NCBI RefSeq assembly: GCF_000372725.1
Contig: NW_005202427.1
Span: 1,214,459-1,278,458, forward strand
Source: Emiliania huxleyi CCMP1516
Lineage: Eukaryota
DNA: 64,000 nucleotides
Reading direction: 5' to 3'
The notes beneath the pieces are model-generated. The model worked only from the letters and a program-made list of their open reading frames with translations. It was not told the origin of the DNA and did no database searches. The translations under genes were made by a program, and so were the position numbers. Below, one piece after another: positions 1 to 60,643 of this stretch (position 1 is its first letter; each line of letters opens with the position of its first letter).

Positions 1-2736
1 GCGCTACTTCGGCTCCTTCGTGCAGCGTGTGCTCGACGAGCCGCTGGACGTTCGGCTGCACTACGGCCACCCCGCCCTGCTCGACAAGCTGCACTTCTTC
101 TGGGAACCGTCTTGGAACCTTCTTGGCACATTCTAGGCCACCCCGACCTGCTCGACAAGCTGCACTTCGCCACGCGCGGCGGGGTGAGCAAGGCGTCCAA
201 GGAGATCAACTTGAGCGAGGACATCTTTAGCGGGTACAAGACGGTGCTCGCCGGCGGCTGCGTCGTCTTTCGCGAGTACCACCTCGTGGGCAAGGGGCGG
301 CCCACAAACCTGATGGAGATCACCGGCTTCTTCGCGAAGCTCTCCTCCGGCTCCGCCGCGTCGCTCACGACGCGCGACGTGGCGCGCTTCGCCGCCAGCG
401 CGCCGCTCGTGAAGCTCTTCTCGTACTACTACTCGGCCATCGCCTTTTACGTGCACGACGTGATCGTGATGCACGTGACGGTGCCTCGCCCCGCGCCTGT
501 CCCTCGCCCCGTGCCCGCGCGCGCGAGGGATGGATGGCGAGCACCGCACTCCTCATTGCGGATGGCCGAGCAGGTCCTCATCCCCTACCTGCTCGCGATG
601 CTCGCGCTCGTCGGCCTCGATCACCGCTTCAACAACTACGAGGCGCAGCCCCTCTCGCTCTTCGCCCTGCTCCCGCTGCTGCTCTCGCTCATGACGGCCC
701 TCCCGCTCTTGCGTGTCTGTAACGACTGCCCATCCTCTTCATCACGTGCTTCCCCGTCGTAGGCCGTGCCCGCGCTCTGCATGGTGCTGGTTGAGAGAGG
801 GCCTCGCCGGGCCCTCTCCTTCTTGCTTGGGATGGCCATCACCGCCTCGCCCGTCTACTTCATCTTTGTCGCGCAGACAAAGTCCTTCCACTTTGCGCGC
901 ACCGTCACGGCGGGCGGCAGTTCATTAGCAGCTAATTCGTAGCTTATTTAGTAGCTGATTCGTAGCTTCGTAGTAGCTTATTAGTAGCTTATCAATCACC
1001 ACAGGCGGGCGGCGCGTCCTACTTCGCCGCGCGGCGGAACGCCTCAGTGCTTCACACGCCCTACCACGAGCTGCACGCGCGCTTTGCGCACTCGCACCTC
1101 TACGTCGCCGCCGACGTGTACGTCTTTCTCTGCATGGCGCACGTCTGGTCCGTCTCGGACCGGCTCTTCCTCACGACGTGGCCCACTTGGGCGGTGGCTT
1201 CGTGCTTCGTCCTCGCGCCGCTGCTGTACAACCCGCAGCAGCTCGAGGCGTGGCAGGTCAAGGCGGACGTGCGCGGCTTCTGCGGCTGGGTGACGGGCGG
1301 AGGCTGGGAGGAGTGGTACGCGCGGCTGCACGGGCCGCCCGCGCGCGGGGGCATGGCCGCCGAGGACGCGGCGTGGAACGAGCAGTTCGGACGCGTCTCT
1401 GTCGCGGCGTTTTACTCGTTCATCGCCTACCTCATCCCGCTCCAGACCAATGTCGACAACTTCGCCGCCACGCGGGGGTGGGTGTGCGAGCCGCGCCTCG
1501 TCTGCACGGGCGCAACCTACCTCGCCTCGCTCGTCGCCCTCGCCGCCGCCGACTTGCGCCCCCACCGCTCGGCGCGCGCGCCGTCGAGCCGCCGCCGCCG
1601 CGCCTGCTACGTCGCGGCCGCCACCCTCTGTGCGGCCGCCACCCTGCAGCTCGCGGCGGCGTGCGCCGTTTTGGGGCCGGCGAGCAGCGCCGCTGGAAAG
1701 GCCCTCTGCGCGCCCGACTGCCGTTTGCGGAGGCGCCTCGCTGGCCTGTAGGCCGGCCTCGCTCGCACCGCCTCGCTGCGCAAGCGGCTGTGCGTCGCCG
1801 CCCTGTGCGTCTACGCTTGCGCAGGCGCTGTCGGGTCGGTGCTGGAGACGTCCGCCAATGCGCCCTCTCTGTCTGAACCTCTTTTGAACCCTTCTCCGAG
1901 CCTTGGATAGGTGCTCGAGCTCGCTGCCAACATGCGGGCGACGGCGGACGTCGCCGCGCCGCTGCTGAGGCTCGCCCACAAGGCGCGCGAGAGCGTGGAG
2001 AGACACGCCCTCCCGCGGACACTTCCTACACACTTCATAAGACACGCCCTCCCGCGGACACTTCCTACACACTTCATAAGACACGCCCTCCCGCGGACAC
2101 TTCCTACACACTTCATAAGACACGCCCTCCCGCGGACACTTCCTACACACTTCATAAGACACGCCCTCCCGCGGACACTTCCTACACACTTCATAAGACA
2201 CGCCCTCCCGCGGACACTTCCTACACACTTCATAAGACACGCCCTCCCGCGGACACTTCCTACACACTTCATAAGACACGCCCTCCCGCGGACACTTCCT
2301 ACACACTTCATAAGACACGCCCTCCCGCGGACACTTCCTACACACTTCATAAGACACGCCCTCCCGCGGACACTTCCTACACACTTCATAAGACACGCCC
2401 TCCCGCGGCTGCTCCGCCTCGCCCAGCAAGGCCACCTATGTATATTTATATACCTGGCGCCTCAGGCGCGTGATTATGCCCTCGCCGCCGCGGTCCTGCT
2501 GCCGGTTGGCGCCCTCGCTGCGCTGCGGCTGCCGGGCGTGGTGCACCGGGCGCTCATCTTTCAGCGCTCGTTTGTCGACCTCGACATGCGCCGGCGCAGT
2601 AGTGTTTCCTGCCCCGGGCGCCCCCGCTTGTTTACCCTCCGTGCTCACTACGGGTAGGCACGGGCTCATCCTGTACTCCTCCGTCCTCGCTGCGGTCGCC
2701 CTCGCATACGCGCTCTCCTCGCTGGATTGGGGCTGA
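1..2736 (+). CDS. 1,3-beta-glucan/callose synthase (GT48, FKS-like), 5'-partial, multi-exon
   Basis: Spliced translation RLHYGHPDLLDKLHFATRGGVSKASKEINLSEDIFSGY...EYHLVGKGR...FFAKLSSG is the GT48 catalytic signature, followed by multiple TM segments. Inferred introns include 66-136, 910-1004, 1839-1910 and 1983-2465; stop at 2734-2736. Confidence 0.9.
2001..2408 (+). repeat. 39-bp tandem repeat (~10 copies) inside a glucan synthase intron
   Basis: Unit agacacgccctcccgcggacacttcctacacacttcata repeated essentially perfectly. It lies in the inferred GC-AG intron 1983-2465. Confidence 0.95.
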
Positions 2737-7762: not shown

Positions 7763-7879
7763 TGTCGTCGATGCAGCGAGGGACGGGACAGACTGGAGAG
7801 TGTGCCGGCGGGAGCGTAGACAACCAAAAAAAAATTTTTTTGGGTAGGACCTGTAGCACCCATACCGCGTTGGTGTCCA

Positions 7880-7965
7880 AAGAAAGAAAGAAAGAAAGAC
7901 AAACCACGGGAGGGATGGGAGGGAGGACGGCACGCCGCCACCACCAGGGATTTTAAGTTGGGAGA
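7880..7965 (-). mobile_element. 5'-truncated retroposon 'family B' 3' end with (TTTC)n tail and 11-bp target-site duplication
   Basis: Core gggagggatgggag..gacggcacgccgccaccac..agggattttaag shared with 7 other loci. Flanked by gttggtgtcca at 7869-7879 and 7966-7976. An uninterrupted homologous site occurs at ~22066-22095. Confidence 0.75.
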
Positions 7966-9115: not shown

Positions 9116-11416
9116 TCATCTCGCCTGCCCTTCATCCGTAAATGAAAAGGGCAAGTCCTCCTCCTCCTCCCCACCGCCCTCCGTCGCCGGAGCGCTCGCC
9201 CCCTCCATCAGCCGGCCCAGCTCCGCCTGCCACGCCTGCATCACATGGCCTGGCAGCGCGCCAGCAAGCATGCCTGCGTGCACAGCCGCGCCCAACGCCA
9301 CCGCCTCCATCGGCGCCACCGTCCTGCGCGGGTCGATGCCAAACAAGTTGGCGACCAGCTTGCGCACCGCCGCCATCTGCGTGGCACCCCCCACCAGGAC
9401 CACCTCCGCGAGCGGCTCCCCTCGCGGGAGGTAGGTTCGCTTGCCGCTCGGCAGGAGCGCCTACGCGGCGGGGGACCATCTTGACAATCCACCTGTGTCA
9501 CAACTGCAGGTGTGAAGAGACGCTGTTCACGCCTACGCGGCGGGGACCAGGCTCCCTCACGCCCCCCGCAGCCCCAGAGGGCCCAGCCCGCTCTGCCAGG
9601 GCACGCCTCCGCCGCGCGCCTCGCCTTCGCCGTCCGCTTCTTTGCTGGCGACGACGGCGCCGCCTGCGCGAGGGTTGCCTCGGACGTGCGACCCAAACGG
9701 AGGGCTCCGGCCACCCTCGCGCAAGCCGGGAGGGCGGGGGCATGCGCGCCTCCCCTGGCAGCGACACTGCGGCAGCGAGCGCAACCTCGTAAAGAGGCGC
9801 CTTGAGCCGCTGCAGCAGCGGCTCGCACGCAGCCTCCATCGCGTCGCGGGTCAGCTCGATCGAGGTGCCTTCGCCGCCCTCGCCGCCGCCCTCACGGTCG
9901 CCCGTCGCCGGCGACTGCGGCGACGGGAAGAGGACCGAGACGCGCTTGACGACCGAGAGCTTGCGCTTCGCCGCCTAGACCCGAGTATGATTGATGAATA
10001 TGTCATGTTTTTGGTGGTATTGTCACAGCTTGCGGCTTGGCCGCCTCGGCGCGCTCGCGCAGAGTGCGCAGCGCGGCCTCGTCGTGGTCGATGGCGGGGA
10101 GGGCGAGCCTCCGCCCCTGGGCCGCGAGGGGGGGGGGGGAGGGGGGGTTAGAGGGAGACGGAAGGCGGCGAGGGGGAGGACTGCGGCTGGGCCCGCGCTG
10201 CTCTGTCGTGCGCTGCTCTGTCGTGCGGAGCCGGCGGGAGAGTGCTCCCCGGCCCCGGTCCTCCTAGTGGTGGAAGAGAGGTCCTCGCCCCCGCAGGCCC
10301 CGCCCCGCCCCCGCAGGCCCCGCCCCGCCCCCGCAGGCCCCGGCAGCACCTCCGCGAGGAGGAGCGCGACGATGGCGGCGTCGAAGTCTGTCCCGCCGAG
10401 GAGCGGGTCCCCCGAGGTGGCGAGCACCTCGGGTTAGGGTTAGGGACAGGGTGAGGGGGAGGGGGAGGGACAGGGTGGGGGTTAGGCCGAGGAGCGGGTC
10501 CCCCGAGGTGGCGAGCACCTCGGGCGAGGCCGCCGAAGCGAGGCCAGGGGCGTGCTGTCAGGCGTGTGCAGCGGCCAGAGCGGCGGCGGTGCGGCGCGGA
10601 TGGGCGGCGGTGAGGCCCGGCCCAGGGCGTGTGGCGCACCTCGACGGCCTAGAAGGCTCCTAGAAGGCTCCTAGAAGGCTCCAGGGCGTGTGGCGCACCT
10701 CGACGGCGCCCTCGTCGCCGAGCCGCAGCACAGACACGTCGTAGGTTCCGGCGCCTAGAGGGCTCCTAGAAGGCTCCTAGAAGGCTCCGGCGCACAGACG
10801 CGTCGTAGGTTCCGGCGCCGAGGTCGAGGACGAGCACCTTGCCGACCGCCCCGCCGAGGCCGTAGGCGAGCGATGCGGCGACCGGCTCCGCGAGCAGCGA
10901 GACCGAGCCGAGCCCGGCGAGCCGGGCCGCTGCGAGCGTCGCCTGCCTCTGAGGCGCGTCGAAGTAGGCGGGCACGGTCACGACTGCGCGGCAGATCTCG
11001 CTCGCCGGGACGTCGAGCGCCCCGAGCAGCTCGGCCAGCACGCACGCGCCGGCCTCCTCCGGACTCAGATCGCCCACCGCAGGAAGCCGAAACATGGCGG
11101 CGCCCTCCTCGTCGCCGACCACCGTATACTGCGCACGTGCAATCTCGGCCTTGCACTGGCGCACGGTCCGCCCAATGAAGCGCTTGGCCGCCACCACCGT
11201 GTTGCGCACGTTCTGGCTGGCCTGAAGGTCGGCGGCCGCGCCCACCAGCACGGTGCCGTCGCCGGTGAAGGCGACGGTGGAAGGTGTCAGCGGCTCGCCG
11301 CGCGCGTTCGGGAGCAGCGACGGCTCGCCGCCTCGCAACAGCGCTATGGCCGAGTTGGTGGTGCCAAGGTCGATGCCGACGAGCAGGCCAGTGGCGAGGC
11401 AGGACGCGAGCAACAT
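9116..11416 (-). CDS. Hsp70-family protein, nucleotide-binding domain only, multi-exon
   Basis: GIDLGTTNS, TVPAYF, LAEPVAASLAYG, DLGAGTYDVSVL, ATSGDPLLGGTDFD, VLVGGATQM, EAVALGAAVHA; stop follows shortly after. Confidence 0.9.
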
Positions 11417-19873: not shown

Positions 19874-21298
19874 ATGTCCACCCCACCGCGCCGCCGCTCG
19901 CGCCGCCTCGCCCCCGCCGCCGCCGCCGCTCCCTCGCCAGACACGCCGCCGCCCGCCCGCCTCCTCGACCTCCCCACGGAGCTCCTCGTGCGCGCCATCT
20001 CTCGCTGCGACCCCGCCGACATCGCTCGCACCGCGGCCGTCTCGCTCCTCTTCCACGCCTCGCTTGCGGTGGAGGGCATCCGCTTGCGGGCGCAAGAGCG
20101 CGGCTACGAGCTTCCGGCGCCGCCAGAGGGCGAGGGCTGCGCCGTGCGGTGGCTGTTCTTCGCTGCGCTGCTGTGCGAGTCCAACCCGCCGGCGAGGGCG
20201 GCGGCAGGCGAACTCCACAGCGTTTTCATCGACGGCGAGGGGCGGCTCTCGTCGTGCGGCTCTGCGCCGGACTGGTATCCCGGACTGCTCGGTCACGGCG
20301 AGGGCGTGACGCGGCTGAACACGCCGACCCGCCTCCCGTCGATGCTGGGTGGCGAGCGCGCCGTGAGCGTGGCGGCAGGAGATTACCACAGCCTGGCCCT
20401 CACCAGCAGCAGTGTCTGGAGCTGGGGCTATGGTCTCTACGGCCGGCTGGGCCACGGCGACGAGGAGGAGCAGTGGCAGCCAAAGAAAGTCGAGGCCTTG
20501 ACTGGCCAGCGCGTCGTCGCCGTGTCGGCTGGAGGCGCGCACAGCCTTGCAATAACTGCCGACGGAGCTGTCCGGAGCTGGGGCCATGGAGGCAAAGGCC
20601 GGTTGGGCCACGGCGACGAGCAGAGCCAGCTGGAGCCCAAGAAGGTCGAGGCCTTTGCTGGCCAGCGCGTCGTCGCTGTGTCGGCTGGAAGCTTCCACAG
20701 CCTCGCCATCACCGCCGACGGCGCCGTTTGGAGCTGGGGCAGTGGAGACTGGGGCAAGCTGGGCCACGGCGACGAGCAGAACCGGCTCCTGCCGAAGAAG
20801 GTCAAGGCCTGGGCTGGCCAGCGCGTCGTCACTGTGTCGGCTGGAAGCTTCCACAGCCTCGCCATCACCGCCGACGGCAGCCTCTGGAGCTGGGGCCATG
20901 GACTCTCTGGCCAGCTGGGCCACGGCGACGAGCAGCAGCAGCTGCTGCCCAAGAAGATCGAGGCATTTGCTGGCCAGCGCGTCGTCGCTGTGTCGGCTGG
21001 AGGCCACCACAACCTCGCCATCACCGCCGATGGCGCCGTCTGGAGCTGGGGCTATGAAGGATGGGGCATGTTGGGCCACGGCGACGAGCAGCGCCAGCTG
21101 CTGCCGAAGAAGATCGAGGCCTTTGCCGGTCAGCGCGTTAACGCCGTGTCGGCTGGGCTGTACCACAGCTTCGCCATCACCGCCGACGGCGCTGTCTTTA
21201 CCTGGGGCATGGGCGTTCACGCCTGCCTTGCCCACGGAGAGGACCTGTCGAACCAGCTGCTGCCGAAGAAGGTGGAGGCGTGGGCGCCGGGGCAGTGA
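19874..21298 (+). CDS. F-box-like + RCC1 repeat protein, intronless
   Basis: LLDLPTELLVRAI (F-box-like) followed by ~6-7 RCC1 repeats (VSAGxxHSLAITADGAVWSWGxGxxGxLGHGD). Confidence 0.92.
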   Translation: MSTPPRRRSRRLAPAAAAAPSPDTPPPARLLDLPTELLVRAISRCDPADIARTAAVSLLFHASLAVEGIRLRAQERGYELPAPPEGEGCAVRWLFFAALLCESNPPARAAAGELHSVFIDGEGRLSSCGSAPDWYPGLLGHGEGVTRLNTPTRLPSMLGGERAVSVAAGDYHSLALTSSSVWSWGYGLYGRLGHGDEEEQWQPKKVEALTGQRVVAVSAGGAHSLAITADGAVRSWGHGGKGRLGHGDEQSQLEPKKVEAFAGQRVVAVSAGSFHSLAITADGAVWSWGSGDWGKLGHGDEQNRLLPKKVKAWAGQRVVTVSAGSFHSLAITADGSLWSWGHGLSGQLGHGDEQQQLLPKKIEAFAGQRVVAVSAGGHHNLAITADGAVWSWGYEGWGMLGHGDEQRQLLPKKIEAFAGQRVNAVSAGLYHSFAITADGAVFTWGMGVHACLAHGEDLSNQLLPKKVEAWAPGQ

Positions 21299-21464: not shown

Positions 21465-21680
21465 AGAAAGAAAACGGACAGGACCCCAGGGAGGGATATG
21501 GGAGGACGGCACGCCGCCACCACACAGGGATTTTAAGGAGAGGGGAGCACAGAAAGAAAGAAAGAAAACGGACAAGCCAAGGGAGGGATGGGAGGACGGC
21601 ACGCCGCCACCACACAGGGATTTTAAGGAGAGGGGTGTGGTGCGCTAGCCGTCGCCCACCCTTGGGCGTCCGCCTCTTCC
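21465..21680 (-). mobile_element. two tandem 'family B' retroposon 3' ends
   Basis: Two copies of (gaaa)n...gggagggatgggaggacggcacgccgccaccacacagggattttaaggagagg. Confidence 0.8.
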
Positions 21681-22877
21681 TGCATACGCTCACCCATAGA
21701 ATTGTCACCGCCAGTGAGTGCGAGATAGGGCTAGCGGCTGGCGGCTAGCCTCTGAGGAGAGTGACCAGAGACACCTCACACGACCCCACACACGGTCTAG
21801 TCCGGCCTCGCGGTCGGCGGAGATTGCTAGAGGACGAGCAAGCCTGCTCTAGCCTCACGCGTTCGCCCCTGTCGTCTGTTGTGTTGTTGTGCCCTTGTTT
21901 GTTCCTTTGGCATCTTGGCTGGGGGAGGCGACAGGGGGGGGCGCGGCCTTGAGTTATGTGTACGCCAACTCAGGGTGTGTGGCAGCCACGCTGGCTGTGT
22001 GTCTTGTGAGCTTGTTTGTGTCTGCGTGTCGCTCGTGCGTGTCGTCATCATCTGTCCCGCGTCCACCCATACCGCGTTGGTGTCCAGTCCGAGCCTGACT
22101 GTTGTTCATCTTTCTACATACATACATACATGCGCGAGACAAAGGACGAAGACTGGCACTGTCTGCTGAGTCTCTGGGGCTCTGGCACTGGGGGCGCCCT
22201 TCGCCTCGCCGACTGAACCACCAGCCCCATCTCTCCGTTCTCTCTCAAGACTCTCACACGTGCCGCGGAACCATCCACATCATCGCTGGCTCGCGGCAGT
22301 ACGGACACTCTTCCATCAGCTCGGAGCATGGTCCGCAAGCGCACACGTGACCGCACGGGACCAGTGTGTGTGAGTGTGTGCCTGTGTGGGCCGGGGCGGC
22401 CGCCGCCCTCGCTCTCGCGAAAGGTCGAGGTCGCTCTAGAGAGGTCGCTCGCCGACGCGCGACGGTCGCGCGCGGCGCGCTCGAGCTGCCACGGCTTGGT
22501 TCGCGCCCCTCCTGTCCCCCCTAGATCTCCCCCCCGCGCGCGCGCGCGCGCCCCCCGGCCCCGCGGCTCTTCGTGATACTTTTGAAAAGGGGGAGTTGAA
22601 TTTCGATTTTGCATTTTCCATTTTCGTGGCGAAGGCCAGCAAGGTGGGACGCTGTCCTCCTCCCATCCCTACCAGTGTGGTCGCAACGGGCCGGGGGCCC
22701 GCACAACAAAGCAGTTCTCTCGGCATTTACCGGCTTTGCCTACCACGGCCTCTTCTTACCGGCCTGCCCTCTCGCTCCTCTCACGGGTGCAGTTGAGAGA
22801 GAGCCCGCGGCGAGGTCCTCCCCCTCCCTGGCTCTCGCTGACAGCTCTCGTTGAGTCTCCTCGGCTCGCTGATCGTC

Positions 22878-25800
22878 CTACTCCCGCTCCCACTCGTCCT
22901 TGTTCTCGGCCCCCCACGAGAAGCGCATCATCTTCATCTCCTCCTCGAGCTCGGTGGCCCAGTCGCCTTTGCCCGTCGCGCGCGCGTGGTTGAAGTTGCG
23001 GTGCATGTCGACGATCTTGCGCGCCTCCGGCGACAAGTCCATGTACCGCCCCTGGTACGGCTCGTCGTCGCAGACCTGCGGCGCAGCGCACGAGTGGCGG
23101 CGCAGCGCAGTAGTGGCCCCTGGCGCGAGCCTCGTCTGTGCATCTCGCGCGGGCGGGGAGGGCGGCGCGCGCCTGCTTGATGGCGAGGGCGGGCGAGAGC
23201 TTCTCCTCGGACGGGAAGAGCCGCGAGAAGACCGGGCCGCCTGAGGAAGGTTCCGAGAAGGTTCCGAGAGGGTTCCGAGCAGGTTCCCGAAGGTTCCGAG
23301 AAGAGCGGGCCGCCCGTCTCCTTGGGCAGCATCACGTGCACCTCGCCCGGCTCGTATGTCCACGTCGCCTGCCACACAAGCCGAGCCCCGGTGACGCTCT
23401 CCTGGCGCGGGCGGGCGAGGTGCGGGGCTGTGTCCACGCGCCTCGCCAGCCACCACAGGCTTGTCGAGCGAGCCTGAGAGGGGGGGGGAGGGAGGTCGAA
23501 GGCCTGCGCCGTGAGCCGACGCGAGGGAGGGCGGCGCGGCGAGGGAGGGCGGTGCGGTGGCGAGGCGAGCAAGCCTGCGAGGAGGACGTGTCCAATAGAC
23601 TACTCAATAGACTTCTCACTAGCAAGCCTGCGAGGAGGACGTGTCCGCGCGCCACCATCCGCAGCAGCAGCGGCTTGATCTCGACGCGGATGTCTCTCCG
23701 CGCCATGTCGGGCGGGATGCGCACGAGCAAGTTGATCTCCTGCGGGGCAAGGTCGGAGGGGTGAGGGGTGGCGGCGCGGGGTCGGCGAGCGGCTGCGGCG
23801 GCTTCCTCGTCCGTCTGCGACCACGAGTAGGTCGTGTTTGCCTCGAGCGGAACCTCCGCCTTGCGCAGAGGGAGCAGAGGGAGCAGGGGGAAGGGGGGGG
23901 GGGGGGGGGGAGCAAGTCGGCTGTGGGGCGGGGTGGCCTTGCGCCCGTGCCCCGACCCTCTCGGGCCCGCTAGTCCCACGGCTCGCGCTTCTCTGCTGCT
24001 CGAGCGCAACCTTGATCAGCGCTCCGCCGCCGCCGCCGCGAGAGGGAGGCTTTGCGGCCGGCTCCGCCCGCCGCTGCAGCATGTCTCTCCGCTGCAGCAT
24101 GCCGTTGCCAGGCGCTCCGCCCGGCGAGGGCTGCGGAGGCGGCTTGCGCGTGATCGGCGCCGCCTGGGTCGCACCCGCGGCGGGAGTGGCGCGGGGGTCG
24201 GGGCGAGGCGCGTGCGGAGGCGGGGCGGCAGGACGACGGCTCGCTGCCTCTGGGCTTTGGGGGGGCGAGAGAGGGGGGAGGGGAGAGGTGTGTGAGGGGG
24301 GAGAGCGTGCGATGCCTTTGGGCTGACGAGGGCCAGCTCGTGGTGCGGGAAGGGTTAGGGTTAGGGTTAGGGTCAGGGTTAGTGCCTTTGGGCTGACGAG
24401 GACCAGCTCGTGGTGCGGGAAGGGTTAGGGTTAGGGTTAGGGTCAGGGTCAGGGTTAGTGCCTTTGGGCTGACGAGGACCAACTCGTGGTGCGGGAAGGG
24501 TGAGGGTTAGGGTTAGGGTTAGGGTCAGGGTTAGTGCCTTTGGGCTGACGAGGACCAGCTCGTGGTGCGGGAAGGGTTAGGGTTAGGGTTAGGGTCAGGG
24601 TCAGGGTTAGTGCCTTTGGGCTGACGAGGACCAGCTCGTGGTGCGGGAAGGGTTAGGGTTAGGGTTAGGGTCAGGGTCAGGGTTAGTGCCTTTGGGCTGA
24701 CGAGGACCAGCTCGTGGTGCGGGAAGGGTTAGGGTTAGGGTCAGGGTTAGGGTCAGGGTCAGGGTTAGTGCCTTTGGGCTGACGAGGACCAGCTCGTGGT
24801 GCGGGAAGGGTTAGGGTTAGGGTTAGGGTCAGGGTCAGGGTTAGTGCCTTTGGGCTGACGAGGACCAGCTCGTGGTGCGGGAAGGGTTAGGGTTAGGGTT
24901 AGGGTCAGGGTCAGGGTTAGTGCCTTTGGGCTGACGAGGACCAGCTCGTGGTGCGGGAAGGGTTAGGGTTAGGGTCAGGGTCAGGGTCAGGGTTAGTGCC
25001 TTTGGGCTGACGAGGACCAGCTCGTGGTGCGGGAAGGGTTAGGGATAGGGTTAGGGTCAGGGTCAGGGTTAGTGCCTTTGGGCTGACGAGGACCAGCTCG
25101 TGGTGCGGGAAGGGTTAGGGATAGGGTTAGGGTTAGGGTCAGGGTTAGTGCCTTTGGGCTGACGAGGACCAGCTCGTGGTGCGGGAAGGGTTAGGGTTAG
25201 GGTTAGGGTCAGGGTCAGGGTTAGTGCCTTTGGGCTGACGAGGACCAGCTCGTGGTGCGGGAAGGGTTAGGGTTAGGGTTAGGGTCAGGGTCAGGGTTAG
25301 TGCCTTTGGGCTGACGAGGACCAGCTCGTGGTGCGGGAAAGTGCGCCGGTGCTCCGGGCCGTAGTAGCCTACGAGAGACAGCCGCAAGCTCACACGGCGC
25401 CCCTCCCTCGCAAGCGGCGAGCCCCGTGGCGGTATGCGGCGCCGCCGCGGTGGCAACGCACGCACAAGTCGAAGGCGCTGTCGCCGACGCCGCAGTCGAC
25501 GCAGTGGTAGAAGCGGCGGACCTGTTAATATTAATATTAATGTTAATATTAATATTAATCGACGCAGTGGTAGAAGCGGCGGACCTGTTAATATTAATAT
25601 TAATATTAATGTTAATATTAATATTAGTCGACGCAGTGGTAGAAGCGGCGGACCTGTTAATATTAATATTAATATTAATGTTAATATTAATATTAATCGA
25701 CGCAGTGGTAGAAGCGGCGGACCTGTTAATATTAATATTAATATTAATGTTAATATTAATATTAATCGACGCAGTGGTAGAAGCGGCGGACCTGTTCGCG

Positions 25801-27167
25801 GCACGGCGCGTGAAGAGGCGCTGCTCACGGCCGTGGGAGGGGCCGCAGCCGAGGAGGCACAGTGGAGGCGCAGCCGTCGCAGCTGGCTTGGGAGCCCGGC
25901 AGAGGGTACTCTCGCTCCTCGCCTGATCAGGTCAAGAGTGGAGTGCTGATGAAGCAGGCACGGCACTCGGTCTCCTCTCGCCAGCGGCTCGGTGAGGCCG
26001 AGGAGACGGGCTTGGCGGTGGGGCGGTGGTGGGGTGGAGCAGCGGTCGGGAGTGGAGTGGCGGTCGGGAGTGGAGTGGCGAGCGGGTTGGGTTAGGGATA
26101 GGGTTCGGGTTAGTGGAGTGGCGAGCGGGTTGGGTTAGGGATAGGGTTAGGGTGAGTGGAGTGGCGAGCGGGTTGGGTGGCGGGGCGAGGCTGCGCCTGG
26201 GTCAGAGCCCTACTAACCCCTCCTAACCCTAACCCTAACCCTAGAGGCTGGCCTGGGTCAGAGCCTCCGTCGCTGGAGGAGCTCGACGATGCGTCCGAGG
26301 CAACGCGCCTACAGGGCGGTTCCAACAAGGTTCCAAGAAGGTTCCAAGAAGGTTCCAGGAAGATGCGTCCGAGGCAACGCGCCCCTTGTACGCGGGCACG
26401 GGCTTCCGCCTCCGCCTCCGAGGCCCCTCCGAGCCCTCCGCCCGGGCGCCGTCCACACGCGGCCCCGCCGCTGCTGCCGCTGCTGCTGTTGCTGTTGCTG
26501 CTGCTGCCGGCGGTTGCTCCTCCTTCGTGGGTCGCGGGGTGAGCCGCACGGCTGGTCGCCAGGAGCTGCGTGCCGGCACGGCCACGCCGTTCGAGAAGCC
26601 GTCGCCATTCTCCCCTCCCACCGCCGCTCGCCCCGATAGGCGGCTCTCTGCGAGGCGGCTCTCTGCGAGGCGGCTCTCTGCAGGTGCGACTCGAGCGACT
26701 CGCGTGCCGCCGTCCACCGCCTGCCGTCGCCAAGCCTGCCGTGCGCGCGCCGCCGAAAAGGCACCGCGCCCAGCCGAGGAGTCCGGCACCGCATCAGCCT
26801 GCGCACCATCGTGCTCGGGCAGTGCACAGACAGGAGCATTCTCGCCCGCGAGAGACTCCTGCAGGTGCTGCCTACGGCCGTCGCCGCAAAAGAGAGAGCT
26901 CCAGCCAGCGACCTTCTCCTTGAAGAGGACGAGTCGCAGCTCCGTGGATTCCGCGCCGCTCTCCGGTACGTACAGCGTGTAGGCGCGTGTGCGGCGCGGC
27001 ACGACGGGCGCAAACAGCCGGCGGCGAAGCAGGACGCCCGAGCCTGCGAGCTCGAGTGTCAGGCGGCGGCGGGAGAGGACGACCTTGAGCTGGCTGTGGG
27101 CGGTGCCGGTTGGCACGACGATGCCGCACGTTGCAGTCGCGTTGTCCTGCCTCCACGTGTACGCCAT
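22878..27167 (-). CDS. CS-domain / ZZ zinc finger / CS-domain (NudC-like co-chaperone) protein, many exons
   Basis: MAYTWRQD...LRLVLFKEKVAGWSSLF (CS); SCDGCAST|VRRFYHCVDCG...FDLCVRCH (ZZ); YSWSQTDE|EINLLVRIPPDMARRDIRVEIK...TWTYEPGEVHVMLPKE (CS). Joining these into one gene is inferred from the splice pattern. Confidence 0.7.
24312..25340. repeat. 14-copy array of a ~40-bp exon end separated by TTAGGG/TCAGGG hexamers (period 70-82, mostly 76 bp)
   Basis: tgcctttgggctgacgaggaccagctcgtggtgcgggaa counted 14 times. Linkers are 5-7 telomere-type hexamers. Confidence 0.97.
25496..25796. repeat. 5-copy array of a ~30-bp acceptor/exon start separated by (ATTAAT)n
   Basis: cgacgcagtggtagaagcggcggacctgtt at ~25498, 25561, 25630, 25699 and 25768; period 63-69 bp. 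Confidence 0.97.
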
Positions 27168-27252: not shown

Positions 27253-28036
27253 GGAGAGAGATAGGAAGAGGCAGACTACCTAGGGTGGGCGACGGATAGC
27301 GCACCACACACCTCTCCTTAAAATCCCTGTGTGGTGGCGGCGTGCCGTCCTCCCATCCCTCCCTTGGGTTGTCTGTTTTCTTTCTTTCTTTTTGGGCATC
27401 ATCCGTAGAGGCACGAGTGTTCGAAGAGAGAGTGGACCTGAGCAACAACATGACCTGTAGGCAAATGATCGGAGTGGGAGTCAGAAATGTGGTCCTTGCG
27501 CGAGGGGAGCTCGATAGACTCGAGGGGCCAGGATACGCCGCGAGGAGGACGGAGTTGCGCCGAAAGGCGAAAGAAGCCGCGAGAACAAGGGACCGGCAGG
27601 CGGCGGCGTCGCAGGACGAGGCAGAAGAGAACAACGCGACAGAGGAGGAAGTGACATCAAGGGAGAGAACGACGAGGGTGGGACGACCGCGAGGTGGCAT
27701 GAAGGTTGCAGCGAGAATCGGCGAGAGACTGCGAAGAGAGATAGGAAGAGGCAGGACTCCCTAGGGTGGGCGACGGATAGCGCACCACACACCTCTCCTT
27801 AAAATCCCTGTGTGGTGGCGGCGTGCCGTCCTCCCATCCCTCCCTTGGGTTGTCTGTTTTCTTTCTTTCTTTTTTGGAATATCATTTCGTGTGCGTCGCC
27901 CATCTCTCCCTGGAGATGACTGCTCTATTTATTTATTTATGGAATATCATCGCACAAAATGGTGGCGGCGTGCCGTCCTCCCCCATCCCTTACTTGGGTT
28001 GTGCGTGTCCCTTTCTTTCTTTTTCCCTCCTTTGGT
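27253..28036 (+). mobile_element. tandem 'family B' retroposon copies; the second retains the ORF C-terminus
   Basis: 27253-27392 and ~27733-27875 are near-identical and end in (tttc)n. The second is preceded by an open frame ending ...ERLRREIGRGRTP* (27764). A degenerate third copy lies at 27960-28036. Confidence 0.75.
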
Positions 28037-28257
28037 GTGTCTGTTTTCTTTCTTTTAGAAATTCCCTCCCTCGCACATCACTGGAAACGTGAATAGAGAT
28101 CCGCGAAACCGCCGCACCCCCCAGCGGAGGGGGCTCGAGGTGTCGAGGCCAGGGCTCAGGCACAAGAACGAAAAAAATCGAAATCGGCAACGCTTCAAAT
28201 CGGCAACGCTTCAAATCGGCAACGCCAATCGATCTGTCAGGTCCGCCGGTCGTCCAC

Positions 28258-30810: not shown

Positions 30811-30877
30811 TAAAAGAAAGAAAGAACGACGCCCCAAGGGAGGGATGGGAGGACGGCACGCCGCCACCACACAGGGT
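30811..30877 (-). mobile_element. short 'family B' 3' end
   Basis: aaaagaaagaaagaac...ccaagggagggatgggaggacggcacgccgccaccacacaggg. Confidence 0.75.
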
Positions 30878-40358: not shown

Positions 40359-40460
40359 TGTAGCGCACCACACTCCTCTCCTTGAAATCCCTGTGTGGTG
40401 GCGGCGTGCCGTCCTCCCATCCCTCCCTTGGGTTGTGTGTTTTCTTTCTTTCTTTCTTTT
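40359..40460 (+). mobile_element. 'family B' 3' end just upstream of USP14
   Basis: tagcgcaccacac..ctctccttgaaatccctgtgtggtggcggcgtgccgtcctcccatccctcccttggg...(tttc)n. Confidence 0.8.
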
Positions 40461-41406: not shown

Positions 41407-44400
41407 ATGACTGCGGCCCTGTTCGCTCTCCTCCTCCTTCCAGCGCTCAACGACGACGCTGACCCTCGCACCCTCGTCCGCTGGGCCTCGTCGCGCTGCG
41501 AGCCGGCCGTAAGCGGCTCGTGCGGCCGCGAGCCGCACGGCTACTGCGACGCGTCGGTCGGCCGGTGCGTCTGCTCGCCCGGCCGCTTCGGTCCGCGGTG
41601 CGAGCAGATGCACTACCCGGCCTGCCGGCTGCACCCCGACGGCGAGATGGCGTGCGACACCTTTGTCGGCCTCATGTCCTGCGCGTGCCGCCTCTCGTGC
41701 GAGCAGAGGTACGGCTCGATGGCGCGGTTCAACACGCCTCTCTGCTGGGACGAGTCCGTGTCGGACGAGGAGCTCAGCCGCCGGTCGCTGCAAGCCGACG
41801 GCGGCCGCTCTCCAGCGACCCTCCGCACCCACACACTCCCCACCCTCCCCGACGCAAGCGGCCGCGCCTCGCTATCCCAGGCGCCCTCACCGCCCTCTCG
41901 CTGGTCAACACGTCCGACTTCCCGGCGGCGAGCGCGAGCATCGTCTTCCGCACCGACCAGTGGCCGCTGCGCGGCCGCTGCGCGCGGAAGAACATCGCGC
42001 CTGCCAAGCTCGCCGCCTGCACCTCGCGCACGGCCGTTGGCCACAACAAGGCGACGAGGCAGCGAGGAGAGGGGGGGGCGCCTCCGCTCTCCCCGCGGAC
42101 GCCGCCCGTCGCCGCGCCTCAGGCGAGGAACATGCTCGGCGGCGACCCCGTCCCCAACTGGCGCTGCCCCGGCTCCTGCTCCCACCGCGGCACGTGCCTC
42201 GTCCCCGCCGCCTAGACACTTCTGGGGCCTTCTAGGAACCGTCCAGGAACCTTCTAGGCACGTGCCTCGTCCCCGCCGCCTAGACACTTCTGGGGCCTTC
42301 TAGGAACCGTCCAGGAACCTTCTAGGCACGTGCCTCGTCCCCGCCGCCTAGACACTTCTGGGGCCTTCTAGGAACCGTCTAGGAACCTTCTAGGCACGTG
42401 CCTCGTCCCCGCCGCCGTCCGCTCGGAGCACGCGCGGGAGCAGTACCCGCTGCAGGGCGAGCGCGCCGGCGAGGCCCTGCCCCCGCCTCCGTGTGCGCGT
42501 GGGCGTGTGCCCTCACGCCTGCCGCACCGAGCAGGCGAGATTACCCGAGATTACCCGAGATTGCCCTCACGCCTGCCGCACCGAGCAGGCGAGCCGAGCT
42601 GCGTCTGCCACCGCGGGTATGTCGGCCGCGCCTGCGAGGCTGTCAGCCCGTCCGAGGAGCGCGTGCGCCTCGCGGCAACGCCGCCTGCCGACGCCGCGTC
42701 CGTGACGCGACCGTGAGTCGTGTCCACAGGAGCCGTTCGGCGCGTCGAAGTACGGCTCGCTCTGCCTCAACGGCCGAGGCTGCTCCGGCCACGGCGCGTG
42801 CGTCGCCCGCTTCTGCCTCTGCCACGCCGGTTGGGCGGGCGCAGACTGCTCGCTCCCAAACGCTCCGAGCCGGCCGCTGGCGCCGCCCGCCGCCCTGCCG
42901 AGCGCGCAGCCGATTGGCGGGCGGCGCGTGCCCATCTACATCTACCCGCTGCCGACCGAGATGTCGCTCGAGCACGTCTACATGCGCGACATGCTGCGGC
43001 GAGGCCAGTACTACGCCAACCTCATGTTCCTCGAGGTGACGCGTCCTCCTGCCCAACCTCCTGCCCAACTCGCCATCGCATGTCNNNNNNNNNNNNNNNN
43101 NNNNNNNNNNNNNNNNNNNNNNNNNNNNNNNNNNNNNNNNNNNNNNNNNNNNNNNNNNNNNNNNNNNNNNNNNNNNNNNNNNNNCCCCCAGTCCCTCCCC
43201 CAGTCCCTCCGCCAGCCCCTCCGCCAGTCCCTCCGCCGCGGAGCGGGCGGTGCCGCGCCCACACCCAACCGCCCGCCCCGCAGGCGCTGCTCCGCGACAA
43301 GGCCTCCGTCGTGGCAGACCCGGAGCAGGCGCGAGGCCGGCCTCGGCCCAGCGCCCGCCCGCTGCTCGCCCAGGCCGGCAGCTGCCTCGCCCGCAGGCGG
43401 CCCTCTTCTTCGTGCCGGTGATGCCGATGCAGATGGCGGGCAACTTGTGGCACCCATACGAGTTCCTCGCGCAGACCGCGCGCCACCTCGCGAGCGAGTA
43501 TCCCTTCTGGCGCCGCTCCGGCGGGCGAGCGACCAGCCCTTCCTCGCACGCCGAGTGAGGAGGGGATCAACAACTCACGGCATGTCAATCCATTGGTAGT
43601 CGCGACCACATCTTCTTCCTCACGACGGACCGCGCCGGCTGCTGGAAGCCATTCGAGCTCAACCAGTCCATTGTGCTCACCTACCTCGGCTTCTCTGCGC
43701 CGGAGGCCAACTCTGGCTGCGAGGAGCGGCTGGCTAACCCTCGCCCCGACCCTGGCCCTGACCCTGACCCCTAGGCCAACTTTGGCTTCGAGGAGCGGCT
43801 GCGCTGGGGCGCAAACCCGTCGGGGCCGGAGCGGCGCAACAACGCGTACGACACGCGCGAGGGGTCGGTCGCCACCACGCTGCCCTGCTACGTGCCTGGC
43901 CAGGACATCGTCGCTAGCCCCACCCCTGAGCCATAGCCCATACCCAAAACCCTAACCCGAACCCTAACCCTGACCCTGACCCTGACCCTGACCCTGACCC
44001 TGACCCTGACCCTGACCCTGACCCTGACCCTGCTACTTGCCTGGCCAGGACGTCGTCGTGCCCGTCGACACCGAGGTGAAGGCCGCCGACCAGGCAAAGT
44101 CGCCGCGGCCGGGCGCTCCGTACCAGTGCGCGGGCCGGGCGGGCAAGCTGAAGCTGCTGCACATGGGCGGCTCGATGCAGAACATGGGGCGGATCGAGTA
44201 CTCGCAGGGCGTGCGGCAGCGCATCGCCGAGCTGCACAGCGACGAGCCAGACTTCGTGCTCGGCGGCACCTTCACGCTGGACGACCTGCGCGCCGCCACC
44301 TTTTGCCTCGCGCCGTCGGGCTGGGGCTGGGGCTGGCGCATCACGCTCACCCTGCTGACGCAGTGTGTGCCCGTCATCATCCAGCCGAACGTGACGCAGC

Positions 44401-47552: not shown

Positions 47553-49990
47553 ATGGCCGACGCCGAGGCCGACAAGCGCGCAGAGGCCGAGATTGAAATC
47601 TGGAAGGTCAAGAAGCTCGTCAAGAACCTCGAGGCGGCACGCGGGTGCGCAGCGCCGACGCCCTGCCGCGATAGCCTGGGCGGGATGCACTGCGCCGCGT
47701 GGCGAGGAGGAGACCGGGCGGCCACGGATCAGCTCCGCCCTCACCGGGCCTCGCTCGCAGGAACGGCACGTCGATGATCTCGCTGATTCTGCCGCCGGGC
47801 AGCCAGATCTCTCAGGCGTCCAAGATGCTTGCCGAGGAGTACGGCACGGCGTCCAACATCAAGTCGCGCGTGAATCGCCTCTCCGTCCTCTCGGCCATCA
47901 CCTCGACCCAGCAGCGGCTCAAGCTCTTCTCCAAGGTTCCTCCGAACGGTCTCGTCATCTACTGCGGCACGATCCTGACCGACGAAAACAAGGAGCGGAA
48001 GGTCAACATCGACTTCGAGCCCTTCAAGCCGATCAACACGTCCCTGTACCTGTGCGACAACAAGTTCCACACCGAGGCGCTGCAGGAGCTCCTCATGTCG
48101 GACGACAAGTTCGGGTTCATCATCATGGACGGTCCGGCCCCGACACCGCTCCCTCCGCCTGACACACGGCCTCACACACAACCTCACACACCACCGCCGC
48201 AACGCCGCCCCGCGACGGCGCCGCCCCGCCCGCCGCCCTTGACCGCTCCTCGTCCGGTGCCCGAGCGGGCGGACGCCGCCGCCAGCCCACCCCCTCGCCC
48301 CTCTGCCGGCAGGTAACGGCTGCTTGTACGGCACTCTGGCGGGCAACCACCGAGAGGTGATCCACAAGTTCTCGGTCGACCTGCCGAAGAAGCACGGCCG
48401 CGGCGGCCAGTCGGCGCTGCGCTTCGCGCGGCTGCGGCTCGAGAAGCGTCAAAACTACGTGACCAAGTGCGCCGAGATGGCGACGCAGATGTTCATCACC
48501 AACGACAAGTGCAACGTGTCTGGGCTGGTGCTGGCCGGCTCGGCAGACTTCAAGGTGGTGCTCTCCGAGTCGGACAAGTTCGACCAGCGGCTCGCGGCAA
48601 AGGCAGCCCGCGCCCTCCCCACCCTCCCCACCCTCCCCTACCTCCCCACCCTCCCCGCCCTCACCACCACTCCCAANNNNNNNNNNNNNNNNNNNNNNNN
48701 NNNNNNNNNNNNNNNNNNNNNNNNNNNNNNNNNNNNNNNNNNNNNNNNNNNNNNNNNNNNNNNNNNNNNNNNNNNNCGCCTCCCCCGGCCCGCGCCACCT
48801 GTCGGCCCGCCTCCCTCTGCCGCCTCCCTCTACCGCCTCCCTCTGCCGCCTCCCTCTGCCGCCTCCCTCTGCCGCCTACCTCTGCCGCCTCCCTCTGCCG
48901 CCTCCCTCTGCCGCCTCCCTCTGCCGCCTCCCTCTGCCGCCTACCTCTGCCGCCTCCCTCTGCCGCCTCCCTCTGCCGCGAAGGTGCTCAAGACGGTGGA
49001 CGTGTCGTACGGCGGAGAGAACGGCTTCAACCAGGCGCGAGCTGGGCAGTCGCGAGGTAGTCGAGGGGTGAGGAGGCACTCCCTACAGAGAGGGCACAGG
49101 CGGGTTGAGTTCCCAGCCGTGCGCAGATAGCCGTGCAGACGGGGGGCGGCGCGGTCGCGGCATGCTGCCGCGGTGAGGCGTTCCTTCGTTTGTGCGGGCA
49201 GGCGATTGAGCTGTCGGCCGAGACGCTGGGCAACGTCAAGTTCGTGCAGGAGAAGAAGCTCATCTCGCAGTACTTTGAGCAGATCTCGCAGGACACGGGC
49301 AAGTTTTGCTTTGGGATCGACGACACGCTCAAGGGGCTCGAGATGGGCGCCGTGCAGATCCTCATCGTGTGGGAGAACCTTCAGGAAGGCCAGGAACCTT
49401 CTAGGAACCTTCTAGGCGCCGTGCAGATCCTCATCGTGTGGGAGAACCTGGCGACCTTGCGGTACACGCTCAAGGACGCAAACAGTGGCGCGCGGCGGCC
49501 TCGCGCCCCTCCCCCCGCAAGCCGCGCGCCCGTCACCCCGCCGCCGCCGCTCGCGTGCAGGGGAGGAGGAGGTGAGGCACATGTCGCCCGAGCAGGAGGC
49601 CGACAAGTCCAACTTCGTCTCCAAGGCACCGCCCGCTCGGTGCCCTCCCGCCCGCCACACCTCGCTCTGACGGGCCGCCTAGCATTCGCCGCGCAGGAGG
49701 GCGCCGACCTCGAGGTGGTCGACAAGGTGCAGCTGGTCGAGTGGTTCGCGTCCAACTACAAAAACTTTGGCGCGACGCTCGAGTTTGTGACAAACCGCTC
49801 GCAAGAGGGCGCGCCGCCCGCCGCCGCCCTGCGCCGCCCCTCTCCAGCGCGGGGGGCGCGGCCTGACGCAGCCCTCTCCCGCCCCGCGACAGGCTCGCAG
49901 TTTGTCAAGGGGTTTGGCGGGGTGGGAGGCATCCTCCGGTACAAGGTCGATTTCATGGAGCACGACTACGACAACGACGACTCGGACTAG
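47553..49990 (+). CDS. ETF1: eukaryotic peptide chain release factor 1 (eRF1), 9 exons, gap in an intron
   Basis: [82 protein letters not shown]. Confidence 0.98.
48808..48978 (+). repeat. 13-bp tandem repeat (CGCCTCCCTCTGC)n in eRF1 intron
   Basis: ~13 copies directly before the acceptor at ~48983. Confidence 0.9.
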
Positions 49991-56500: not shown

Positions 56501-57342
56501 TAGGCCTCGGCTACTTCGACACGGCGGTGGAGGCGGCGGTGGCGTACGCGCGGGCGGTCGGGCAGGCGGAGGCGGCAGGCGCGGGAGGGCCAGCGCGGGC
56601 AGCAGCGGCGGCGGGGGAGGCGGAGGCGGGGGAGACGGAGGAGGAAGAGGCTGTGGAGGCCAGGGAGATGGAGGCGATGGAGGCAGAGTAGGCGGAGGAG
56701 GCAGCGGCGGCGGCGGAGGAGGAGGATGTGCCGCCGCAGGCCGAGGGGTTGCGTTTGCACCTCTCCGGCTGCACGGGCTCCGCTGGCCTGGCTGCCGGCT
56801 CTCCGTGCTGGGCCAAGCTACGCGGCTCGCCTTGGTGGCCTGCACTCATCAGCGCGGAGGAGGGCGAGTCGGTGCGGGTGCGCTTCTGCGGCACGGGCAA
56901 CGTGGCGACACTCGAGCGCGCGAGCTGCATCAAGTCGCTCCGCGAGGACGAGCGCCTCTTCGACGCCACGCGCTGGGGCAAGGACTTTGGGCGGCCAAAG
57001 TGGAAGCACCTTCGCGCGCCCTTTGCGAGTGCCGTCGCTCAGGCACTCGAGGTCGAGGCGGCCCTCCCGCATGCGCCGCCGGGCGCGCTAAGCCGAGGAC
57101 CGGCCGGAAGCTCCGCAGACAACGCGAGGCGGTGCGACGAGCGGCCGCCCAAGCGTCGTCGCACCTCGGCTGCGCAGGAGGCGGTGCAGATGGTGGCAGA
57201 CCTGGAGACGGCGGACGCGGAGCTCGACGCGCCGCCTGTGCGGAGGTGCGCCGTCACGCTCGACCGCTGCTTGCCCAGCAGCGCCAACCGCGGCGCGGCC
57301 CCTCCTCGCCTCGGCATCGGCGACGGGTGGGCCGCCTCGTAA
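53521..57342 (+). CDS. Tudor-like + 7x AP2-like DNA-binding repeats + PWWP chromatin protein; in-frame TAG at 56689-56691
   Basis: Repeat EAEGLRLHLSSSxxTGYKGV...RFKAQ...LGxFxTAVEAAVAYARA x7; Tudor-like FQVGGRVAVQYSDGALYPGEI...YSVRCDDGE; PWWP CWAKLRGSPWWPA...VRFCG. Intron ~53947-54045. Confidence 0.82.
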
Positions 57343-60187: not shown

Positions 60188-60643
60188 GGGAGGGCGGCCG
60201 CGGCGGTGTAGCTGTAGGGGCGGCGGCGAGCTCCCGGTGGCAAATACTCGCCTCACAGTCCAAGATGGCGGCTCGCGCCCCCGGCCGTGCTCTGGCGTGC
60301 CTCTCTAGTCCCGCCTGCCACCCAGATACCGAGGGCGGGGCGCACTCTTCGACTTGGGCTATTATCTGGCCTCGGGAGGGCGGCCGCGGCGGTGTAGGGG
60401 CGGCGGCGAGCTCCCGGTGGCAAATACTCGCCTCACAGTCCAAGATGGCGGCTCGCGCCCCCGGCCGTGCTCTGGCGTGCCTCTCTAGTCCCGCCTGCCA
60501 CCCAGATACCGAGGGCGGGGCGCACTCTTCGACTTGGGCTATTATCTGGCCTCGGGAGGGCGGCGGCGGCGGTGTAGGGGCGGCGGCGAGCTCCCGGTGG
60601 CAAATACTCGCCTCACAGTCCAAGATGGCGGCTCGCGCCCCCG
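60188..60643. repeat. 180-bp tandem repeat, ~2.5 copies
   Basis: caaatactcgcctcacagtccaagatggcggc at 60241, 60421 and 60601; copies nearly identical. Confidence 0.95.

What the first reader, a model, noticed from the sequence alone, without database searches (positions are those of the whole stretch)
24312..25340. CRISPR-looking intronic array: exon end x14 interleaved with telomere hexamers
Seen: the last ~36 nt of an exon (FPHHELVLVSPK) plus its GC donor is repeated 14 times, separated by 5-7 TTAGGG/TCAGGG/ATAGGG units. Only the last copy continues into ordinary intron sequence (aaag|gcatcgc). Inference: one telomeric insertion with a ~40-bp target duplication, later amplified by unequal exchange. 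It leaves 14 candidate donors and a 1-kb G-quadruplex-prone template strand inside a gene.
Basis: partly seen in the sequence, partly recalled or inferred. Interest (0 to 1): 0.7.

Follow-up and report, generated by a model that had tools for sequence, protein, structure and literature searches.

The report
Repair-scar minisatellite inside an algal intron
In the alga Emiliania huxleyi, the end of an exon is repeated 14 times with telomere repeats in between, inside an intron that other samples of the alga splice out correctly; it is one of about twenty similar inserts nearby, likely scars of DNA-break repair, and at least one of these is itself spliced out as a complete, likely new, intron.

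Summary
Real, and neither CRISPR nor a chromosome end. Fourteen copies of a 39-nt exon-end-plus-GC-donor alternate with 13 telomere-type spacers (24313-25339) in an E. huxleyi CS/ZZ-finger gene. An orthologous allele (L001) has only two copies around one filler, so this is a 'target duplication + repeat filler' insert, later amplified into a variable minisatellite. RNA contigs give one exon-end copy joined to the next exon, so the 5'-most donor is used. One is presence/absence polymorphic. Eleven are intron-sized (60-74 nt) inside reading frames, including Hsp70, eRF1 and glucan synthase; one is RNA-confirmed as an intron. Best reading: staggered-break repair with repeat-templated filler, filtered by splicing; the enzyme is unproven. 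Closest known: Daphnia break-repair introns and mammalian interstitial telomeres. The scan noted the same build before in other protist genomes; added here are splicing and polymorphism evidence. Ratchet-like splicing of the 76-nt units is possible but untested.

The parts
24313..25339 (-). The array: 14 copies of a 39-nt exon-end + GC donor, 13 telomere-type fillers (G-rich strand = + = template strand)
   Evidence: two copies only in L001
25304..25368 (-). Exon 5 (GYYGPEHRRTFPHHELVLVSPK), end of a ZZ-type zinc finger; its last 36 nt are the duplicated target
   Evidence: RNA joints, mapped
24164..25303 (-). Intron 5, 1140 nt here (253 nt in L001): AAAG|GC donor at 25303 to CCCAG acceptor at 24164; holds 13 of the 14 copies
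   Evidence: (laid on L001)
24011..24163 (-). Exon 6 (AAPITRK...ALIK)
   Evidence: RNA pieces; matches P0001/P0002
22881..27167 (-). Host gene: CS (p23/NudC-like) domain, ZZ-type finger, second CS domain; 3' half not checked with RNA beyond the exon 6-7 joint
25496..25796 (-). Sister element: acceptor + exon-4 start x5 with TTAATA filler; absent (empty site) in L001 and DNA run X4, present in X2 and X8
26309..26382 (-). Sister element that is a whole intron: 22-nt copy of the next exon start + 11-mer filler ending in TAG; spliced in 5 of 5 RNA-type runs, joint absent from 3 of 3 DNA runs
26195..26265 (-). Sister element: exon-2 end + GC donor duplicated around a telomere filler (x2 here, x3 in L001)
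26068..26178 (-). Sister element wholly inside intron 2, telomere filler (x3 here, x2 in L001)
23568..23646 (-). Sister element: exon end + donor duplicated around a 27-nt filler
   Evidence: not checked with RNA
23241..23313 (-). Sister element: predicted whole intron, exon-start copy + 11-mer filler
   Evidence: agrees with model P0001; not checked with RNA

Best explanation
The array is a variable-number minisatellite inside intron 5 of an E. huxleyi gene, grown from a two-copy insert (exon end, telomere-type filler, exon end) that likely arose when a staggered DNA break was repaired with filler copied from a simple repeat. Inferred steps: (1) nicks about 40 nt apart open the exon end; (2) a 3' end ending in AGG primes on telomere-type repeat by microhomology and is extended; (3) rejoining duplicates the target; (4) the insert survives because the 5'-most donor and exon are untouched, so splicing removes everything added; (5) the two 39-nt copies then allow slippage or unequal exchange, giving 2 to 14 copies. 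Shown: anatomy, the two-copy allele, copy-number differences at 5 of 5 elements shared with L001, an empty site for a sister element, correct splicing from the first donor in other samples. The same process, landing in exons at G|GC with a filler that ends in TAG, makes whole introns of 60-74 nt (one shown spliced, ten predicted). For telomere fillers I lean to telomerase or capture of telomere ends (fixed end phase); for the class as a whole to templating on the genome's abundant simple repeats. No function is needed; the array is most likely tolerated, not selected.
For: Two-copy allele with one 61-nt filler. Empty versus filled site for the TTAATA element: filled in window, X2, X8; empty in L001, X4. 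22 duplicate+filler elements in 64 kb, curated; shuffles gave 0-3 and 0 in 10. Junction bases in register with the filler: 31 and 20 over 17 elements against 5.9+/-2.9 and 6.3+/-2.8, reached by 0 and 2 of 2000 random draws. 6 of 7 telomere-type fillers end at GG(T/C)NAG on the G strand, also where that strand is antisense. RNA records X11-6 and X12-9 hold exon 5 once, joined to exon 6. Only donor 1 of 14 keeps the frame. Removal of the intron-type inserts restores frames in Hsp70, eRF1 and glucan-synthase genes.
Against: No empty allele of the focal element was seen (3 DNA runs; the tool skipped the repeat and hid 172 rows), so its insertion is inferred from sisters. In the window the focal left junction shows only 1 in-register base; the 3-base AGG match needs the L001 flank. 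The element list for one search was hand-made and 2 of 19 were dropped for lack of a repeat family. L001 is a metagenome contig and may have collapsed the array. Duplications of 13-39 nt are longer than the 4-12 bp reported for Daphnia (PMC4202315) and also fit retroposon target duplications. Variant hexamers (TCAGGG, ATAGGG) and non-telomeric fillers argue against plain telomerase. It is unknown whether the RNA samples carry a 14-copy allele. Newness of the intron-type inserts was not tested against other haptophytes.
Confidence: 0.7

Rival explanations
1. The inserts are 5'-truncated tails of retroelements (LINE- or Penelope-like, or telomerase-like reverse transcriptases with several template RNAs) laid down by target-primed reverse transcription, with the duplicate as target-site duplication.
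For: Recurrent filler families, long variable duplications, priming microhomology stronger on one side (31 vs 20), fixed end phase of telomere fillers.
Against: In none of the 21 elements displayed does a filler carry a shared unique body or poly(A); fillers differ in internal order; at least five repeat families, including the near-palindromic TTAATA. No genome was held to look for full-length elements.
Confidence: 0.17
2. Add-on for the splicing step: the 1.1-kb intron is removed ratchet-wise. Each 76-nt unit is an intron-sized piece with a GC donor, branch-point-like motifs from the C-rich telomere strand and an AAAG|GC junction, so successive excisions regenerate the donor and end in the same mRNA.
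For: Unit length 70-82 nt matches RNA-confirmed introns of this gene (69, 75 nt in L001); six CTRAY-type motifs and three AGs per unit (the branch consensus is recalled); an AAG acceptor is used at intron 6 (loose ends at L001 142 in X1, X5, X11, and X3); the TTAATA array has the same AG|GT build.
Against: Two other AGs (GAG, CAG) lie before the AAG in each unit and would frameshift; contigs cannot show intermediates; one-step splicing gives the same mRNA.
Confidence: 0.25
3. The copy number is an assembly over-expansion of a short (2-4 copy) insert.
For: L001 has two copies; 7 of 13 units are identical; no read spanning the array was seen.
Against: Seven distinct unit types; the rare ATAGGG spacer of unit 10 is found letter for letter in run X3; L001 has more copies than the window at two other elements, so it does not simply collapse.
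Confidence: 0.1
4. The array is a selected regulatory device (donor competition or G-quadruplex pausing that tunes expression).
For: 14 of the window's 30 plus-strand G4 motifs lie in it; folding with quadruplexes -50.4 versus -18.6 kcal/mol without; donors 2-14 would give frameshifts or stops.
Against: Copy number is not conserved (2 in L001); the same build occurs with fillers that cannot form G4; no alternative donor joint was listed in 5 RNA-type runs.
Confidence: 0.05

Closest known systems
Short interstitial telomeric sequences inserted at double-strand breaks (Nergadze et al. 2007, PMC2246262; passages read)
   Same: Telomere hexamers inside a chromosome, target duplication, break end in register with the repeat.
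   Different: There duplications are a minority (6 of 130 rodent, 4 of 25 primate loci); here duplication is the rule of the class surveyed, fillers include four non-telomeric families, and target plus filler is re-amplified as a unit at a splice site.
Daphnia pulex neo-introns from staggered-break repair (PMC4202315; passages read)
   Same: Insert flanked by a direct repeat of the adjacent exon end; polymorphic among alleles; spliced as a new intron.
   Different: Repeats there are 4-12 bp and fillers AT-rich and of mixed origin; here duplications are 13-39 nt, fillers come from a few recurrent repeat families, the 11-mer itself supplies the TAG acceptor, and 11 candidates lie in 64 kb.
Intron gain by tandem genomic duplication at AG|GT (review PMC3443670; passages read)
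   Same: Each unit of the focal array spans one AG|GC to the next and could be excised without changing the exon.
   Different: Here a repeat filler is added, the site was already a donor, and there are 13 such units in series.
Introner elements (recalled; only search listings seen)
   Same: Many near-simultaneous new introns with a common look.
   Different: Introners are copies of one element with short target duplications; here a third to a half of each intron is copied from the local exon and the filler is simple repeat.
CRISPR array (features recalled)
   Same: Constant repeat alternating with spacers of similar length.
   Different: Spacers are near-identical telomere repeats, the 'repeat' is coding exon, the host is a eukaryote.

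Membership tests
CRISPR array | Unique, foreign-derived spacers | tested here: not met
   13 spacers are telomere hexamer runs, 8 with the same sequence
CRISPR array | Non-coding repeat with leader and cas genes nearby | tested here: not met
   Repeat is an exon end spliced into mRNA; flanks are exons of a CS/ZZ gene; cas genes elsewhere in the window were not searched for
True telomere / chromosome end | Repeats run to the end of the molecule | tested here: not met
   Unique gene sequence on both sides in window and L001; RNA joins across
Break-repair interstitial telomeric sequence | Telomere repeat of the host inside a chromosome | tested here: met
   TTAGGG is the G. huxleyi telomere repeat (10.1101/2024.05.26.595999, passage)
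Break-repair interstitial telomeric sequence | Orthologous empty site | tested here: inconclusive
   None seen for the focal element in L001 or 3 DNA runs; seen for the TTAATA sister
Break-repair interstitial telomeric sequence | Break end in register with the repeat | tested here: met
   AGG in the L001 flank, 1 base in the window; class-wide excess
Break-repair interstitial telomeric sequence | Direct role of telomerase | not testable with these tools
   End phase in 6 of 7 fillers is suggestive; no haptophyte telomerase RNA template found listings
Staggered-break neo-intron | Insert + duplicate is excised exactly as an intron | tested here: met
   For the sister at 26309-26382 (5 of 5 RNA-type runs, 0 of 3 DNA runs). 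The focal array is not a new intron: it sits at an existing donor
Staggered-break neo-intron | Intron absent from other alleles or relatives | tested here: inconclusive
   No intron-less allele of 26309-26382 in L001 or 3 DNA runs; other haptophyte genomes not available
Introner / retroposon insertion | Shared unique element body across sites | tested here: not met
   Only simple-repeat fillers among the elements shown; genome-wide search impossible
Minisatellite (VNTR) | Tandem 10-100-nt units with copy number differing between alleles | tested here: met
   14 versus 2 copies; sister elements 5/1, 3/2, 2/3, 2/3, with the caveat of assembly collapse
Recursive (ratchet) splicing | Intermediates or lariats at internal AG|GY sites | not testable with these tools
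   Only assembled contigs were available

The most novel reading that the evidence does not exclude
E. huxleyi runs an active, genome-wide insertion process in which broken ends are extended on a handful of simple-repeat templates (telomere hexamer, 11-mer, 10-mer) and rejoined with a 13-40-nt duplication. Because the 11-mer is primed at GG and reads TTCTAG on the sense strand, the product is a ready-made GC-AG intron: an intron factory without a transposon, which at this window's density (11 per 64 kb) would mean tens of thousands of young introns and could help explain the species' GC donors and repeat-filled introns. Arrays like this one would be its amplified products, removed from RNA unit by unit.
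Probability: 0.35. Interest if true: 0.8.

Novelty: new variant of a known kind. Interest (0 to 1): 0.58.

Why it matters
Where new introns come from is still open: PMC3443670 counts five clear break-repair gains. Here the same footprint is dense, polymorphic between samples and RNA-verifiable in a cultured species with long-read genomes, so the mechanism can be counted and dated with existing data. It also explains gene-model errors at such sites (P0001, P0002) and offers highly variable markers. The array by itself is a tolerated minisatellite; its special value is as a natural test of ratchet splicing and of donor choice among 14 near-identical donors.

Tried and rejected
No whole genome was held, so all class counts are for 64 kb. 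Protein search for longer homologues found none among 7989 candidates (weak evidence). Viral contigs: no match to the 11-mer pattern; one match to the telomere-variant pattern, L002, is an unrelated hexamer run without the exon duplicate in the 351 nt read. Reads were laid on L001, not on the window's array, so 14 copies were not tested directly. Contig depths were not used as copy number. The GT donor of model P0002 (HHEL|AAPI) is rejected: RNA carries VLVSPK. My first guess for the acceptor (near 24250) was wrong; RNA puts it at 24164. Size contrast (11 of 11 intron-type inserts within 60-76 nt versus 0 of 9 others) is descriptive only: lists hand-made, bounds chosen after seeing the data, focal and TTAATA units left out, variance test not significant (P 0.11). 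From the 32 rows (14 loci) I dropped two plain tandem repeats (60315-60494, 48876-48966) and the TTAATA acceptor duplication. One of seven telomere-type fillers (62438) does not end in the common phase. PMC2784329 (passages) did not hold the intron-repeat description I expected. Read et al. 2013 (Nature) was not held.

Full report
Observation. The array is as described. Between 24313 and 25339 there are 14 copies of a 39-nt unit and 13 spacers of 31-43 nt made of TTAGGG and variants (Tandem Repeats Finder score 1902). On the minus strand the unit is the last 36 nt of an exon (FPHHELVLVSPK) plus GCA. The 13 repeat units fall into 7 types. Unique sequence continues on both sides, so this is not a chromosome end, and the spacers are near-identical, so it is not a CRISPR array.

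Host. Exon 1 is 100% identical over 75% of its length to a protein that its sources name as an Emiliania huxleyi CCMP1516 model, and 98% identical to a second model. The gene has CS domains (PF04969, E 5e-9) and a weak ZZ zinc-finger match (E 0.004, below the curated cut-off). TTAGGG is this species' telomere repeat (10.1101/2024.05.26.595999, passage), and GC donors are its majority class, 56-65% (PMC4028052, passages).

A second allele. One metagenome contig matched the exon end (L001). It is the same locus at about 96% identity. There the element has two copies around one 61-nt filler, and the unique flank ends in AGG, in register with the filler. Four other elements in the same 2 kb also differ in copy number, window/L001: 5/1, 3/2, 2/3, 2/3. 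The 5/1 case is an empty site: the TTAATA-filled element is absent from L001 and from DNA run X4 and present in X2 and X8. That shows directly that this build is an insertion with a target duplication. No empty allele of the focal element itself was seen in L001 or in the 3 DNA runs, and a short-read assembly could have collapsed L001. Against simple over-expansion of the window, run X3 holds the rare ATAGGG spacer of unit 10 letter for letter.

Splicing. Five RNA-type runs were laid on L001. All five show the exon 5-exon 6 junction AAAG|GC to CCCAG|GCG. In three (X1, X5, X3) the contig ends too early to tell which copy gave the donor. In two (X11 record 6, X12 record 9) exon 5 appears once and joins exon 6, which means the 5'-most donor (window 25303). 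The intron is 1140 nt in the window and 253 nt in L001. Any other donor would shift the frame or bring in stops. Whether these samples carry 14 copies is unknown.

The class. A survey of local duplications and a scan for self-copy introns give, after curation, 22 elements in 64 kb, 7 of them in this gene: a unique 13-39-nt duplicate around a simple-repeat filler (telomere type, an 11-mer family, a 10-mer, TTAATA, others). Shuffles gave 0-3 and 0 in 10. The duplicate's ends are in register with the filler well beyond chance: 31 and 20 bases over 17 of 19 elements, against about 6 each (hand-made list). Six of seven telomere-type fillers end at the same phase on the G strand, also where that strand is antisense and splicing cannot have selected it; that vertebrate telomerase stops at this phase is recalled. 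Of the five introns of this gene fully spanned by L001 and confirmed by RNA, four carry such an element in the window. Eleven elements sit in reading frames as G|GC...YAG|GC units of 60-74 nt; removing them leaves an open frame in all 11, in three cases within Pfam-matched Hsp70, eRF1 and glucan-synthase sequence. One of them (26309-26382) is spliced exactly in 5 of 5 RNA-type runs and the joint is absent from 3 of 3 DNA runs. The other ten are predictions.

Mechanism. Most likely (0.7) a staggered break is repaired by extending a 3' end on a simple-repeat template, primed by microhomology, and rejoining so that the target is duplicated. Splicing then filters the products: they last inside introns, at exon ends where the first donor or last acceptor stays intact (the focal case), or in exons when they happen to be a spliceable intron. 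The duplicate then seeds expansion. The break, the polymerase and the expansion route are inferred. Retroelement tails are the main rival (0.17). A separate, untested possibility (0.25) is that the long intron is removed unit by unit: each unit is intron-sized, carries six branch-like motifs and ends in AAAG|GC, and this gene uses an AAG acceptor at intron 6. The G-rich template strand is predicted to form quadruplexes, but nothing points to selection for that.

Comparison. It works like the interstitial telomeric insertions of mammals (PMC2246262, passages) and the staggered-break introns of Daphnia (PMC4202315, passages), with features of the tandem-duplication route (PMC3443670, passages). 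It differs in longer duplications, recurrent filler families that supply the acceptor, density, and re-amplification. That E. huxleyi introns are rich in repeats is in print (10.1101/283549, passage), as is an intron-length allele (PMC2784329, passage). I recall that Read et al. 2013 report 10-11-bp tandem repeats in its introns, but the paper and its supplement were not held and may say more. Searches listed no paper describing exon-duplicate-plus-filler introns in this species; I saw listings only, and the library lacks most subscription papers. Earlier notes of this scan describe the same build in other protist genomes, in one case stating that splicing had not been seen.

Verdict. A real intronic minisatellite, ordinary on its own, but the most amplified example of a dense and testable insertion process that also appears to make introns. 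New variant of a known kind; interest 0.58.

Noticed in passing
window 10395-10819 (minus): Hsp70-family gene with three duplicate+filler elements in 430 nt: one telomere-type at an acceptor, two 11-mer type, one splitting the DLGAGTYDVS motif.
   Followed up: partly
window 49347-49415 and 66-136: Predicted self-made introns inside eRF1 and glucan-synthase genes; in the latter the intronic copy has already mutated while the exonic copy keeps HGHPD-type coding.
   Followed up: partly
window 2001-2408 and 42189-42416: Two more amplified duplicate+filler arrays (39 nt x10.5; 68 nt x3.4).
   Followed up: partly
window 27255-27400, with copies at 7879-7957, 21465-21681, 27735-27880, 27960-28055, 30812-30876, 40361-40455: Dispersed ~140-nt repeat ending in a T-rich tract, upstream of the host gene; arranged differently in L001. 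Possibly a mobile-element end.
   Followed up: no
P0001, P0002: Both public gene models mis-splice this gene: one skips the zinc-finger exons, the other uses a GT donor that RNA does not support.
   Followed up: yes
window 43706-43774, 26195-26265, 62438-62509: Telomere-type fillers that begin with the CCTAG/CTAG start typical of the 11-mer family, hinting at a shared template or enzyme.
   Followed up: no
window 20414-21212 and 55119-56561: Coding repeats of 156 nt (look RCC1-like, recalled) and 213 nt (look AP2-like, recalled).
   Followed up: no
L002 2990-3170: Degenerate TCAGGG-type hexamer run in an AT-rich viral-collection contig, without an exon duplicate in the part read.
   Followed up: no
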